A program made the translations under genes and the position numbers. DNA of 38,263 nucleotides from IMG/VR virus record IMGVR_UViG_3300049182_000029, positions 1 through 38,263 of that record; one strand, given 5' to 3'. Numbering within the stretch: the stretch's first letter is position 1; each line of letters starts with the position of its first letter. Positions 7,770 to 15,400 of the stretch are shown piece by piece. The notes beneath the pieces are model-generated. The model was not told the DNA's origin. It was given only the letters and a program-made list of their open reading frames with translations, and did no database searches. This DNA comes from a virus (taxonomy: Duplodnaviria; Caudoviricetes).

Positions 7770-7972
7770 CCCCAAGGTATCCGAAAGAACGCCGGTGCGG
7801 CTTCCGGCTGTCGCTTCCTGACCACGCTGTTCGATTGATGACGCGATCCGAGTACTACCAAGTGACCAGCTGGTTGCGACATTGCCGCCGCATGATCGCA
7901 ATGGAATTGGAGAATAATCAAAATATTCGATCAAGTTCCATCAAAACACTTGACCGGGATCAAAAGCTGTAA
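7766..7972 (+). CDS. Hypothetical protein
   Basis: ATGA-coupled to rusA; GGAG RBS. Confidence 0.5.
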   Translation: MTPRYPKERRCGFRLSLPDHAVRLMTRSEYYQVTSWLRHCRRMIAMELENNQNIRSSSIKTLDRDQKL

Positions 7973-7978
7973 GAACAT
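7950..7978 (+). promoter_or_regulatory. Putative promoter for the structured RNA and replication genes
   Basis: TTGACC-N17-GAACAT; predicted start near 7985 coincides with the first stem. Confidence 0.45.
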
Positions 7979-7984
7979 TCGTTT

Positions 7985-8123
7985 GTGCTTGGCGGCGCGG
8001 ATGAAGTAGCAAAAAGCGTTTCACATGGATTCCCGGAGGTCTTCGACCTTGCCGCCAGCCCCGCGAAAGCGGGAGGGGATTCCAGGTGAAACGCTTTTTT
8101 TTCGTCTGTACTCCGCCAAGCAC
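7985..8123 (+). ncRNA. Putative C4-like antisense/structured RNA
   Basis: Nested stems 7985-7995/8113-8123 and 8011-8024/8086-8099; inner hairpins 8036-8050 and CCCGC-GAAA-GCGGG at 8060-8073. Confidence 0.55.
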
Positions 8124-8386
8124 CGTACTCCACACGTCAGCAAGGGCCGCAACCGGGCCGCGTGGAATAAAACGGGACCGGTAGCGCAAATGATCGCGCA
8201 GGGTGCAATTCCCACAATCCGGGGGCTGGCGCAAGTTCTGCGGCCCAGGGCGTACTGAGTAGTTCAGTAGCTGGCAGAAATCCGGGTATCCGGGGTGGCG
8301 CTCAAACTCTTCTTTCCTCTCATAGGGGTTAGGGGGCGTTTGGGTGGAAATATAAAAACCAATCATCAATCCTAGAGGAAGTAATC

Positions 8387-8986
8387 ATGGACAAGAACAA
8401 GAATCAAAGCGCTGAAACTGCGCAACATTTTTCCTGCGAGATCCTGAACAACAAGGACTTTGCCAATCTGCGGGCTCTGGCGTCGATCGACGTTGCGCCC
8501 CGTGTCATGGTCGATCGCCTGGACCTGATCGAACTGCTGGCCGAGGTTGACGCACTGCGCGGCGGCGCCAGTAGGCCCGCCAGCAAGTACAGCGCCGAAT
8601 TTGAGGAAGCCTGGACCCTGTACCCGAGCCGACCCGGGGCGAGCAAAGCGGCCACCTACAAGGCCTGGACTGCGCGCCTGAAGGCTGGCGCCACCGCCCT
8701 GGAAATGATCGAGGGCACGGCCAAGTACGCCGCGTACTGCAAGGCCGAACGTACCGAAGCCGCCTACATCAAGCAGCCGGCCACCTTTTACGGCCCGGGC
8801 GAGCACTATGCCGCCGACTGGTCGTCCCGCCGGCCGCCTGGGAATGTTGGCCAAGCGGGCCCAGGTCGCGGCCCACGCCCACCACTGAGCGACATCAACG
8901 CCGCGAACAACGTCGAAGCGCTGCGCCTGCTGGGACAGCCCACCTTCTACCCTGACGACGGCATGACGATCGAGGCCGCACCATGA
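8387..8986 (+). CDS. Phage replication protein (initiator C-terminal-type domain)
   Basis: FEEAWTLYP...KAATYKAW...YIKQPATFYG pattern; followed by a loader-like gene. Confidence 0.65.
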   Translation: MDKNKNQSAETAQHFSCEILNNKDFANLRALASIDVAPRVMVDRLDLIELLAEVDALRGGASRPASKYSAEFEEAWTLYPSRPGASKAATYKAWTARLKAGATALEMIEGTAKYAAYCKAERTEAAYIKQPATFYGPGEHYAADWSSRRPPGNVGQAGPGRGPRPPLSDINAANNVEALRLLGQPTFYPDDGMTIEAAP

Positions 8987-9327
8987 GCCACTATTCTGTA
9001 ATTTCATCAGAACACGGCACCGGGAAAATATTAGGCATGAAACTGCTGCGCGACATATTCCCTGAAGCCAAAGCCGATTACATGAATTTCTGCTTGTTTT
9101 CGACCAGCGGGGTACATGGAAGTTATCAGACCATCGAAGAGGCCGAAGAGCACATCAAGGCGCCGACCGATGAAACCTGTAATCGCGTGACATTTCTGAT
9201 TGTCCACCCGCGCATGGTTTGCCTGAAATACGGGAATTGTGAGCCTGAGACGCTGGAGGATATCCAGTTTCTCAAAGCCCTGCGCGCCAGCAGCCACGAA
9301 GAAATTGCACAGATTGGTATGCCATGA
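8983..9327 (+). CDS. Hypothetical protein (lower GC) between the replication genes
   Basis: ATGA-coupled on both sides; FCLFSTSGVHG. Confidence 0.75.
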   Translation: MSHYSVISSEHGTGKILGMKLLRDIFPEAKADYMNFCLFSTSGVHGSYQTIEEAEEHIKAPTDETCNRVTFLIVHPRMVCLKYGNCEPETLEDIQFLKALRASSHEEIAQIGMP

Positions 9328-9986
9328 ACCAGGCCGACGCCCCGCGTTTCTTCGAGCTGCTGGACCTTACCTACGACATGATCGGCGTAGGCCCTGCCAA
9401 AGTCATCAGCCCGGCCGCCAAGGCGATGTTCTTCCAGGATCTGGAGCGCTACCCGCTCGAGCTGCTGGAAGCGTCCCTGGCCGCCCACCGCCAGGACCCG
9501 GAGCGTGGCAAGTTCACCCCGAAGCCGGCCGACATCATCTTCCAGATCGAGCGCCGCCGGAAGGTCAACTGGCTGTCGGCCGACGAGGCATGGTCCCAGG
9601 TGCCCAAGATCGAAGGCATGGCGGGCCTGCTCAACGACGTGAGCGCCCAGGCGCTGGCCGTGGCTATCCCGCTGCTCGATGCGGGCGACGAGACGGCGGC
9701 CAGGATGGCGTTCAAGGGCGCATACACCCGGCTGGTCGAGGTGGCCAAGCTGGAGCGGCGCGGCCCGAAGTACTGGGTTTCCCCCGGCGGTAGTTTCGAG
9801 GAACAACTGGCGGTCGAGGCCGAGGGCGTGCGCCAGGGCCTGCTGGCACCGCCGACCCGCCCGGCTGAGGTGCCGCGCCTGACCAACGAACCCACGCCCC
9901 GCAGTAAGCCGGATCTCAAGGCGCTGCTGCTGTCGCTGAAACCAAAAACCATGTTGCCACTGGAGAAACAAGATTATGAGCCATGA
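9324..9986 (+). CDS. Putative helicase loader / replisome protein
   Basis: FFQDLERYPLE..AHRQDPERGKFTPKPADII, SADEAW and ARMAFKGAY motifs, typical of the gene after phage initiators. Confidence 0.65.
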   Translation: MNQADAPRFFELLDLTYDMIGVGPAKVISPAAKAMFFQDLERYPLELLEASLAAHRQDPERGKFTPKPADIIFQIERRRKVNWLSADEAWSQVPKIEGMAGLLNDVSAQALAVAIPLLDAGDETAARMAFKGAYTRLVEVAKLERRGPKYWVSPGGSFEEQLAVEAEGVRQGLLAPPTRPAEVPRLTNEPTPRSKPDLKALLLSLKPKTMLPLEKQDYEP

Positions 9987-10338
9987 AACCCAAGTCGATC
10001 ACAGCCTGTGCGCGGCCAACTGCCCGATGATCGCCACCAATTCGAAAAGCACGACCGGCGGCGGGGACTGGCTGTGCTTCATCCACTTCGCCGCCGAGGG
10101 CAAACGCTGGGGCCACATCAGCGACGAACTGCGACGGCTCTCATGGTTGGTCGACATCGTCCGGGCCTTGCGCATGGTCGGTCGCCGCAAGAACTATGAC
10201 GAGGTGCGCGAACAGGCCCGCCAAGCCTTCATCCTGGCCCAACGCGGCGATTTGAACATCAAAGACAGCGAGAGCATGGGGTCCTGGATGATCCGCCTGG
10301 AAGGCGTCCTGGCGCAGTCTTGCAAGGAGGGAGCGTAA
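9976..10338 (+). CDS. Hypothetical protein (C..CP...C..H)
   Basis: ORF overlapping its neighbours; GGAG RBS. Confidence 0.7.
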   Translation: MSHETQVDHSLCAANCPMIATNSKSTTGGGDWLCFIHFAAEGKRWGHISDELRRLSWLVDIVRALRMVGRRKNYDEVREQARQAFILAQRGDLNIKDSESMGSWMIRLEGVLAQSCKEGA

Positions 10339-13956: not shown

Positions 13957-14180
13957 CCCACCCCACCCCCGAGCTGTACAAAGCCCTGTTCGAAGACGAC
14001 AAGCGCGGCGCGGCCATCCTTGAGCACCTGATTCAGGTGTTCGCCCGTGATGCCGTGGTCGAGGGCGGCATCGATGCAGTGCTCAAGACCTACAAGCATG
14101 CTGGCCAGCGCAAGGTGCTGGACTTCATCGCAAGTCAGATCAACCGCGCCAATGGCGTTCAAACTCAAGAGGAAGAATAA
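13953..14180 (+). CDS. Bbp19-like protein
   Basis: YKALFE..GAAILEHL...GQRKVLDFI; directly after the portal. Confidence 0.75.
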   Translation: MTHPTPELYKALFEDDKRGAAILEHLIQVFARDAVVEGGIDAVLKTYKHAGQRKVLDFIASQINRANGVQTQEEE

Positions 14181-15400
14181 TGGGTATCGCAACTCTCACC
14201 GGCTCGGGCTGGTCCGTGCCAGCGCTCCAGGGCGCCAGCAACAAGCAAACCTATCTCGGGCAGGTCGCCACCGGCTGCGGCGTGCCGAACAACCTGCACG
14301 CGTCCAACCTGTTCAGCTACAGCCGTTGCCCGCACTGGGCGCGCGATGATATCCGCTCGCTGCAAATCGTGTTGCCGAACTGGTACGTCAATGCCTCGAT
14401 GGTCGAGACCAACGGCGGCGGTATCGGCACCTGGACCGCATCGATCGAGTACCCGGCCGGCACGTTCACCCAGGTGACGTTCAGCGGCAGTGCGTCGGGT
14501 ACCGTGGCCGCCGGCGCCAATCTGGTTTCGGACGCGGTCGCGGTCACGATCCCGAGCGGCGCCAAGTTCTGGACACGGCTTTGGCAGAGCGCCCCGGGCA
14601 AAATGCTGTGGACGAACCAGTATTGCGGCGACGGTAGTGCGCAGATGGCCTACAGCACCACCTTGGGCGGCTGTCCGGATCTGACCATGGGCGGCACCGC
14701 CGCGACCGTGACGGCGGCCGAGAACGCCATGATGTTGCCCGTCGCGATCATCGCGCAGACCTGCAAGCCGTCGATCGGCATCGTGGGCGACAGCATCAGC
14801 GTCGGCAAAGGCGACATCGGAGACGCGGGCGGACTGCAAGGGTATCTCTCGCGTGCGTTCGGCGGCCGCGCGGCGCTGGTCAATGTGGGCGTCTCGAGCG
14901 ACACCCTGGTCAACTTCATCGCATCCGGCACCAAGCGGCGCGCCCTGGTCAACGACTACTGCTCGCACGCGATTGTCGAATACGGCTCGAACGACGTTAC
15001 CAACGGCCGCACCGCAGCGCAGATCCTGGCCGATACGATCACGGTCCTGGGCTACTTCCCCACCAAGCGCACCGCCGTATGCACGCTGACGCCACGCGTC
15101 ACCAGCACTGACGCATTCGTGACCGAGGTGAATCAGACGGTTCTGGCGTCCGAGGCGGTGCGAGTCGTTGTCAATGCGCAACGTCGGAACGGGCTGGCGG
15201 CGGCCACCACGCTGGGCGTCACCTCGGCAATCTTCGACATTGAGCGGGCGTGCGAAAGCGCGTATCTTAGCGGCAAGTGGCAAGTTATCGGCGGCACGAT
15301 CTCGCCGGCGACTGCCACCTACACGGACGACGGGGTGCATCCGAATCGCACGGGCTACATGGCCATCGCGGCAAGCATTAACCCGGCGACGTTTATCTAA
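14180..15400 (+). CDS. SGNH/GDSL hydrolase (esterase/deacetylase) with N-terminal beta-rich domain
   Basis: Blocks VGDSI, NVGVSS, YGSND and DGVHP. Confidence 0.88.
   Translation: MGIATLTGSGWSVPALQGASNKQTYLGQVATGCGVPNNLHASNLFSYSRCPHWARDDIRSLQIVLPNWYVNASMVETNGGGIGTWTASIEYPAGTFTQVTFSGSASGTVAAGANLVSDAVAVTIPSGAKFWTRLWQSAPGKMLWTNQYCGDGSAQMAYSTTLGGCPDLTMGGTAATVTAAENAMMLPVAIIAQTCKPSIGIVGDSISVGKGDIGDAGGLQGYLSRAFGGRAALVNVGVSSDTLVNFIASGTKRRALVNDYCSHAIVEYGSNDVTNGRTAAQILADTITVLGYFPTKRTAVCTLTPRVTSTDAFVTEVNQTVLASEAVRVVVNAQRRNGLAAATTLGVTSAIFDIERACESAYLSGKWQVIGGTISPATATYTDDGVHPNRTGYMAIAASINPATFI

What the first reader, a model, noticed from the sequence alone, without database searches (positions are those of the whole stretch)
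8124..8986. Candidate RNA-dependent replication origin paired with an initiator lacking its N-terminal DNA-binding domain
Seen: about 260 further nt without a convincing gene, containing imperfect stems (TACTCCACACG 8126-8136 / CGCGTGGAATA 8159-8169; about 8300-8345) and a G-tract GGGGTTAGGGGGCGTTTGGGTGG (8325-8347) followed by an A-rich stretch. The next protein has only the C-terminal FEEAW..YP..ATF type domain, with no obvious wHTH or iteron array, and a loader-like gene follows. Knowledge: G-tracts stabilise primer R-loops in ColE1 RNA II and mitochondrial CSB II. Inference: a structured transcript may open the origin in place of an O-like DNA-binding domain, regulated by the C4-like RNA upstream. 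This is my best candidate for an undescribed system, but it is speculative.
Basis: inference. Interest (0 to 1): 0.72.

Follow-up and report, generated by a model that had tools for sequence, protein, structure and literature searches.

The report
Folded RNA replaces phage initiator's DNA-binder
A 226-base gene-free stretch of this phage is one copy of a folded element that dozens of phages conserve by compensating mutations; it is predicted to act as RNA, we found it beside replication-starter proteins that lack their DNA-binding half and never beside complete ones, and it likely opens the replication origin in their place.

Summary
Observation confirmed and extended. 8122-8347 is a conserved structured element: its 5' motif finds 112 IMG/VR loci. 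In 23 aligned copies 28 of 54 pairs change on both sides, including a 7-bp pseudoknot, and the G-tract arm is invariant while its partner varies C/U. No Rfam match. It follows a sigma70-like promoter and a P4-CI/C4-like terminator RNA. The 199-aa protein is a real family with only the initiator C-terminal domain, followed by a lambda-P-like gene (weak). Association: 17 of 30 short-initiator clusters carry such an element, 0 of 64 full-length ones (10 of 30 with non-circular models). No separate N-terminal-domain gene was found. Three circular or near-complete element-bearing genomes show no recognisable replication protein in the ORFs scanned. Best reading (0.55): a read-through transcript forms an R-loop origin, ColE1/MRB-like. 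Against: nothing functional is shown, no RNA contig covers it, the G-tract marks one subtype only, and 13 short clusters lack an element. One interchangeable module is Rfam's orphan Betaproteobacteria-1.

The parts
7950..7978 (+). sigma70-like promoter (-35 at 7950-7955, 17-nt spacer, -10 at 7973-7978); 8 of 12 consensus matches
   Evidence: below the threshold of the promoter tool; 34 of 53 element loci have a site scoring 8 or more at a similar place
7985..8123 (+). P4-CI/P1-C4-like RNA: long stem with internal three-way junction and terminator-like U8 tract (8095-8102); 5' leader complementary to its inner loop
   Evidence: fold z -8.6; U-tract just before the element in 48 of 53 loci; leader/loop complement of 7 nt or more in 20 of 30 loci versus 8% across loci; no Rfam match
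8122..8347 (+). conserved structured element, subtype A (candidate origin RNA), 226 nt
8122..8173 (+). 5' domain shared by subtypes A-D: stem 8129-8133/8162-8166, invariant pairs 8140-8141/8160-8161, hairpin 8145-8159
   Evidence: 56 sequences, 93% paired, 92 cells changed on both sides, 0 of 500 shuffles
8175..8222 (+). three-way junction with a variable hairpin (takes 100-150-nt insertions in relatives) and a T-loop-like hairpin 8201-8213
   Evidence: 'T-loop-like' is a recalled motif name
8223..8279 (+). hairpin 8223-8246 whose loop (8236-8241) pairs with 8274-8279 as a pseudoknot
   Evidence: 5 of 7 pairs change on both sides; 15 of 19 further distinct copies keep 5 or more Watson-Crick pairs, mean 5.6 versus 3.1 in permutations, 0 of 2000
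8300..8345 (+). terminal hairpin: C/U-rich 5' arm, G-tract 3' arm (8325-8336)
   Evidence: 9 of 12 pairs vary on one side only, the G columns being invariant; all 34 loci found by the G-tract pattern match the element model
8348..8371 (+). A-rich stretch after the element
   Evidence: 72% A+T against 39% genome-wide; only 11 of 29 subtype-A loci are clearly A+T-enriched there
8387..8986 (+). initiator with C-terminal domain only (199 aa; domain residues 62-150)
   Evidence: weak structural match to a DnaD C-terminal domain, 2zc2, Z 4.4, rmsd 2.8, 61 aligned, not above background
8983..9327 (+). 114-aa ORF of unknown family, not present at this place in most relatives
9324..9986 (+). lambda-P-like helicase-loader candidate (220 aa, PHROG 6028)
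   Evidence: homologue in L149 also hits PHROG 2289 'helicase loader'; top of 689 re-aligned chains is lambda P, 9oa1_V, Z 7.4, 138 aligned, rmsd 11.6, Foldseek E 1.2; follows the short initiator in 13 related contigs

Best explanation
The element is a conserved folded module that is predicted to work as the 3' part of a read-through transcript and likely forms a persistent RNA-DNA hybrid (R-loop) that would open the phage replication origin without a sequence-specific initiator. Steps: (1) host RNA polymerase starts at 7950-7978 (inferred); (2) the CI/C4-like RNA decides termination at the U8 tract or read-through (inferred from anatomy and leader/loop covariation); (3) the read-through RNA folds into the covarying structure (structure shown by comparison, folding in vivo not shown); (4) in subtype A the invariant G-tract would anchor the hybrid, as the G-rich stretch does in ColE1 RNA II and CSBII (analogy only); (5) the truncated initiator and the lambda-P-like protein would load the host helicase on the displaced strand; other phages would use a primase-helicase or host restart proteins alone (inferred).
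For: Structure. Strand: G columns invariant with C/U partners, + strand -96 versus - strand -70 kcal/mol, GNRA-capped stems in 18 of 23 rows. Position: 2-24 nt behind a terminator-like U-tract in 48 of 53 loci. Association: element in 17 of 30 short-initiator clusters and 0 of 64 long ones, Fisher p 6e-11; 10 of 30 (p 3e-6) with models A-C only, 9 of 29 (p 1e-5) without the cluster related to a training sequence; whole records 3 of 13 versus 0 of 27. All 12 initiator hits in 50 element-bearing records lie in frames of 124-219 codons. The loss recurs in unrelated N-termini and in a second domain class, the O-like C-terminal domain of L149. 103 N-terminal domains of long initiators find no homologue in 155 element-bearing loci, the window included, while 88 of 103 long loci are found by a non-self domain. 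G009 (35.8 kb, terminal repeats) and G025 (37.7 kb) have no PHROG initiator, helicase, primase or polymerase among the ORFs scanned; G027 (10.6 kb, terminal repeats) has ParA, a ribbon-helix-helix protein and capsid genes but no Rep or integrase hit. The element is not tied to one downstream gene and in L206 and L306 lies behind or opposite the initiator gene, as fits a cis-acting site rather than a leader of that gene. Precedent: ColE1 and CSBII (PMC6317783, passages), MRB (PMC3035462, parts 3-4).
Against: No functional or expression evidence: three RNA runs have contigs on the flanks only, none over 7969-8303 (contigs cannot show absence). 13 of 30 short clusters have no detected element, 7 of them Massilia-type prophages whose short gene is not followed by a loader, so the short form does not require the element. 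The G-tract is absent from subtypes B-F, and in A it is paired in a hairpin that would have to open. The A-rich tract is poorly conserved. No antisense RNA I equivalent was seen. Clusters are not independent: shared ancestry and a shared gene pool inflate the p-values, and many long-initiator controls are distant. Models D-F were trained on test loci. All element phages examined in full but G027 also carry RecE/RecT-type or RusA genes, which allow recombination-dependent replication. The DnaD and lambda-P structural matches are weak, and B. subtilis DnaD binds ssDNA through its C-terminal tail (PMC10201434, section titles), not necessarily the domain kept here.
Confidence: 0.55

Rival explanations
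1. The element is a cis-acting transcription or processing signal of the early operon (an RNA antiterminator in the manner of HK022 put, or a tRNA-like processing site that matures the upstream CI-like RNA), and its link to short initiators reflects a shared gene pool.
For: It always follows promoter plus attenuator and precedes an operon; the window has no recognised N- or Q-like protein among ORFs scanned; a T-loop-like hairpin is present. put and RNase P processing of CI are recalled, not read here.
Against: It lies behind, not before, the terminator; it does not explain 0 of 64 among long-initiator phages or genomes without replication genes; the downstream gene and spacing vary freely, and in L206 and L306 the initiator is not downstream on the same strand.
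Confidence: 0.18
2. The element is a stand-alone non-coding RNA or ribozyme of unrelated function (as proposed for GOLLD or ROOL), and these phages replicate by recombination using RecE/RecT and RusA, the short initiator loading helicase at D-loops.
For: Ornate fold with pseudoknot and long insertions; unrelated folds replace each other at this place; RecE/RecT and RusA are present in the window, G009, G023 and G025; Massilia-type prophages have the short protein without an element.
Against: No terminator follows the element; G027 has the element, partition genes and no recombination gene hit; a single infecting genome still needs a first origin (general knowledge).
Confidence: 0.15
3. It is an origin, but it folds as single-stranded DNA of the + strand (a primase or primosome assembly site like ssi or pas sites) exposed by transcription, not as RNA.
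For: Covariation cannot tell RNA from ssDNA (also said in PMC5737381, passages); the association with replication modules is explained equally well; GNRA-type loops are also stable in DNA (recalled).
Against: Many G-U pairs, a pseudoknot, a T-loop-like motif and the fixed place and orientation behind a promoter favour RNA.
Confidence: 0.1

Closest known systems
ColE1 RNA II primer origin
   Same: Structured transcript with a G-rich stretch near its 3' end; R-loop priming without a sequence-specific initiator (PMC6317783, passages).
   Different: No sequence or Rfam match; about 230 nt; no antisense RNA I seen, control looks like CI-type attenuation; in a phage, with a truncated initiator and a P-like loader.
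MRB plasmid replicons (RNA I / RNA II; PAGEV motif region)
   Same: Replicon without Rep protein built on transcribed structured RNA (PMC3035462, parts 3-4; PMC5737381, passages).
   Different: No Rfam PAGEV or ARRPOF match; no overlapping antisense RNA; Vibrionaceae plasmids versus tailed phages and a capsid-forming circle.
Betaproteobacteria-1 RNA (Rfam RF02932)
   Same: Occupies the same position (behind promoter and CI-like hairpin, ahead of a short initiator) in L012, L017, L301 and L302.
   Different: Different sequence and fold; the window's element does not match it. Its function is not stated in what could be read here (the supplement of PMC5737381 was unreadable).
Lambda O/P replication module
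   Same: Initiator C-terminal domain gene followed by a P-like loader gene.
   Different: No N-terminal winged-helix domain, no iterons inside the gene.
P4 CI / P1 C4 antisense attenuation system
   Same: Promoter, 5' leader complementary to a loop of the downstream hairpin RNA, terminator (system described in PMC3632133, passages).
   Different: Describes 7985-8123 only; no Rfam C4 match; no downstream target inside the element; what follows is the element, not an icd/kil-type gene.
T4 R-loop origins and T7 transcript-primed origin (recalled)
   Same: Phage origins opened by a transcript.
   Different: Those need a promoter and an unwinding element, no conserved RNA fold; phage-encoded replisomes.

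Membership tests
ColE1-type origin | Sequence/structure homology to RNA II or RNA I | tested here: not met
   Rfam; no plasmid match to a subtype-A copy
ColE1-type origin | G-rich stretch near the RNA 3' end | tested here: met
   8325-8336, invariant G columns
ColE1-type origin | Overlapping antisense inhibitor RNA | tested here: inconclusive
   No minus-strand promoter or terminator at the element; no conserved pairing with the upstream RNA; no strand-specific reads
ColE1-type origin | R-loop, RNase H cleavage, Pol I priming | not testable with these tools
   needs bench work
MRB / PAGEV / ARRPOF plasmid RNAs | Match to the Rfam models | tested here: not met
MRB / PAGEV / ARRPOF plasmid RNAs | Replicon without a Rep gene | tested here: inconclusive
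   No Rep recognised in G009, G025, G027; unknown small ORFs remain; the window itself has a truncated initiator
Betaproteobacteria-1 (RF02932) | Match at gathering score | tested here: not met
   window no match at E<=5; four other short-initiator loci do match
Lambda O-type initiator | N-terminal winged-helix DNA-binding domain | tested here: not met
Lambda O-type initiator | Iterons in or near the gene | tested here: not met
Lambda P-type loader | P fold, position after the initiator | tested here: inconclusive
   best structural match Z 7.4, rmsd 11.6, 138 aligned; no sequence match in PDB
P4 CI / C4 antisense RNA | Leader complementary to a loop of the hairpin RNA, terminator behind it | tested here: met
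P4 CI / C4 antisense RNA | Match to Rfam C4 models | tested here: not met

The most novel reading that the evidence does not exclude
A large group of environmental tailed phages and capsid-forming circles has replaced iteron-plus-initiator origins with a set of at least six interchangeable folded RNAs (this one, Betaproteobacteria-1 and four others) that open the origin by themselves; initiators then shed their DNA-binding domain repeatedly, or were lost altogether, giving a third family of RNA-based replicons after ColE1 and MRB and the first in which an RNA stands in for a protein domain.
Probability: 0.45. Interest if true: 0.9.

Novelty: new variant of a known kind. Interest (0 to 1): 0.74.

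Why it matters
PMC3035462 (2010) names only ColE1 and MRB as plasmid families that start replication with RNA. If this element is an origin, it adds a widespread phage-borne class, explains how complete phage genomes without any recognisable replication gene copy themselves, gives a testable function to the orphan Rfam family Betaproteobacteria-1, and offers compact host-run replicons. A 450-bp cloning test would decide it. Even if it is not an origin, it is an undescribed, strongly covarying 230-nt pseudoknotted RNA family.

Tried and rejected
Frameshifted or read-through N-terminus upstream of 8387: the frame is closed by stops and about 107 homologues are short; rejected. Split initiator with a separate N-terminal gene: no homologue of 103 such domains in 155 loci; other DNA-binding families are not excluded. 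The 10-11-nt complement between 8053-8063 and 8220-8231 as an antisense target: not conserved; chance. Iterons: none. tRNA/tmRNA: none. Canonical four-run G3 quadruplex at the G-tract: pattern not met. BLAST of the region or of a subtype-A copy against GenBank phages and plasmids: no meaningful match, one partial hit at E 0.02. RNA runs X22-X24: contigs on flanks only, uninformative; X1 covers the stretch without differences but may be its source. Foldseek on both models: nothing at E<=0.001. A weak 5'-domain hit in long-initiator record G078 (22 bits, model positions 11-46) was judged a chance hairpin and not followed up; two weak PHROG 678 hits (12-14 bits) likewise, as that search also rings in 9 of 14 control genomes. 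GC skew is dominated by gene direction and does not locate an origin. Literature searches found no description of this element; six supplementary files of PMC10690425 hold none of six motifs, but files 1, 2 and 4 were not searched and the supplement of PMC5737381 could not be read, so a prior listing as an unnamed candidate RNA is not excluded.

Full report
Setting. The window is a complete 38,263-bp virus record with direct terminal repeats, podovirus-like by portal PF12236 and capsid, with RecT, YqaJ, NinB, Ref and RusA genes. No integrase or repressor hit was found among the ORFs scanned. Its closest named relatives by the initiator are Massilia and unclassified Pseudomonadota contigs; a betaproteobacterial host is an inference.

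Observation. 7985-8125 folds into one long stem at z -8.6 and 8124-8389 at z -2.5. Rfam gives nothing better than E 2. The protein at 8387-8986 matches initiator families only over residues 60-156. Of 120 listed homologues, the best 107 are 137-199 aa; those of 256-317 aa carry N-terminal domains. The first 23 or so residues of the window's protein are not conserved; the 27 nt around its start are shared with the start of another gene in L001, so they were probably captured.

The element. Related phages all had, after RusA, a promoter, a long hairpin with a U-tract and a further non-coding stretch, followed by 0-6 variable genes and then the short initiator. A 20-letter pattern from 8122-8141 found 112 IMG/VR loci, 54 clusters besides the window at 90% identity. 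By their 3' ends 29 of the 55 are subtype A like the window. I aligned 23 subtype-A copies, leaving out six with long insertions or deletions. On a 54-pair structure read from the alignment, 88% of cells pair, 28 pairs change on both sides, and 0 of 500 shuffles reach this; slid controls pair at 42-48%. The structure was derived from these sequences, so the counts lean towards it; as an independent check the pseudoknot, which was not in the covariance model, holds in further copies: 15 of 19 distinct loop/partner pairs keep 5 or more Watson-Crick pairs (mean 5.6, permuted 3.1, 0 of 2000; the four misses are misaligned or divergent rows; some of the 19 equal loops of training rows). In the last hairpin the G columns do not vary while their partners alternate C and U: the G identity, not only pairing, is kept, and only the + strand can form these pairs. 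A pattern for the G-tract end found 34 loci, all of which match the model, 33 over its whole span or in two parts. No Rfam family matches 20 representative loci.

Upstream RNA. In 48 of 53 loci a U-tract ends within 45 nt before the element, and 34 have a promoter-like site. In 20 of 30 loci with a mapped promoter the 5' leader has a complement of 7 nt or more inside the hairpin RNA, against 8% across loci: the layout of P4 seqA/CI (PMC3632133, passages; mechanism recalled). There is no conserved complement between this RNA and the element.

Link to replication modules. From the element side: within 3 kb, every initiator domain found began 0-60 residues from the start codon, in several unrelated N-termini; whole-record search of 50 records gave 12 hits, all in frames of 124-219 codons (8 of these loci were in the 20-row query alignment, half of whose rows were long initiators). 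L149 has only the C-terminal domain of the O-like family plus the same loader. From the initiator side: 177 loci found with two protein alignments were grouped by domain identity; six unclear clusters, one locus without a hit and clusters with under 2 kb upstream and no element were dropped, and 13 loci were classed as short by hand from their start codons. Elements were found in 17 of 30 short and 0 of 64 long clusters. Models D, E and F were built from test loci; with A-C alone the count is 10 of 30, and 9 of 29 without the cluster nearly identical to a training locus. Whole records gave 3 of 13 versus 0 of 27. Subtype E is Rfam Betaproteobacteria-1 (4 of 13 loci scanned). 103 N-terminal domains of long initiators had no homologue in 155 element-bearing loci, while the control found 88 of 103. 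Other element phages carry a primase-helicase (PHROG 239) or nothing recognisable: G009, 104 ORFs scanned together with the early regions of G025 and G023, most remaining G025 ORFs, and G027, a 10.6-kb record with terminal repeats, ParA, a ribbon-helix-helix protein and head genes. Small unknown ORFs remain in each, and the late region of G023 was not scanned.

Against. Seven Massilia-type prophage clusters have the short protein with no loader behind it and no element; six other short clusters also lack a detected element, though L044 has a similar C/U-rich plus G-tract stretch. Subtypes B-F have no G-tract. The clusters share ancestry and habitat, so the p-values overstate the evidence. RNA contigs of three runs lie on both flanks and not on the element. 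Structural matches for both proteins are weak.

Mechanism. Shown: a conserved fold on the + strand, its place behind promoter and attenuator, its exclusive occurrence (in these samples) with replication modules that lack a DNA-binding initiator domain. Inferred: transcription, R-loop, helicase loading by the truncated initiator and P-like loader. I put 0.55 on an RNA-opened origin, 0.10 on an ssDNA origin, 0.18 on a transcription or processing signal and 0.15 on an unrelated RNA with recombination-dependent replication.

Literature seen. PMC5737381: passages; supplement unreadable. PMC3035462: parts 3 and 4 of 6 and a term search. PMC6317783, PMC12990946, PMC3632133: passages. PMC10201434: abstract and section titles. 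PMC10690425: six of nine supplementary files searched. HK022 put, T4 and T7 origins, T-loop and GNRA motifs are recalled. Ten searches found no description of this element or of the pairing.

Verdict. A real, undescribed structured RNA family with a strong but untested link to initiators lacking their DNA-binding domain; it likely works like ColE1/MRB RNA II but is a member of neither. Interest 0.74.

Noticed in passing
L012:2430-2549, L017:6875-6996, L301:3691-3812, L302:4368-4486: Rfam Betaproteobacteria-1 sits at the element's position ahead of short initiators, suggesting a function for this orphan family.
   Followed up: partly
L295, L296, L334, L336 (230-940 nt before the initiator domain): A further unrelated conserved element (subtype F, about 230 nt) before short initiators; no Rfam match.
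   Followed up: partly
L140, L173, L156, L132, L146 (B); L180, L158, L186, L129, L165, L177 (C); L013, L015 (D): Subtypes that share the window's 55-nt 5' domain but have different 3' halves.
   Followed up: partly
L246 (G027:C1:1-10589): 10.6-kb record with terminal repeats: ParA, ribbon-helix-helix protein, element at 2606-2861, HK97-type capsid, protease, portal, terminase, no tail, Rep or integrase hit; looks like a capsid-forming plasmid satellite.
   Followed up: partly
L232-L237 (G009, G025, G023): 33-38-kb phages whose early regions show only RecE, RecT, SSB-like and RusA genes.
   Followed up: partly
L016, L018, L024, L035, L037, L098: Massilia-type prophages with a short initiator-domain protein bearing another C-terminal extension, after an antirepressor gene, with no loader or element; their real initiator was not found.
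   Followed up: partly
L150, L120, L123, L170, L256, L284: Subtype-A copies with 100-150-nt hairpin insertions in the junction hairpin.
   Followed up: no
window 9976-10338: Cys/His-rich 120-aa gene conserved right after the loader in several relatives; no family hit.
   Followed up: no
window 14180-15400: GDSL/SGNH hydrolase gene between portal and scaffold genes.
   Followed up: no
window 8367-8393 and L001:233-259: Ribosome-binding site and start shared with a different gene in a relative; the initiator's first residues were probably captured.
   Followed up: partly
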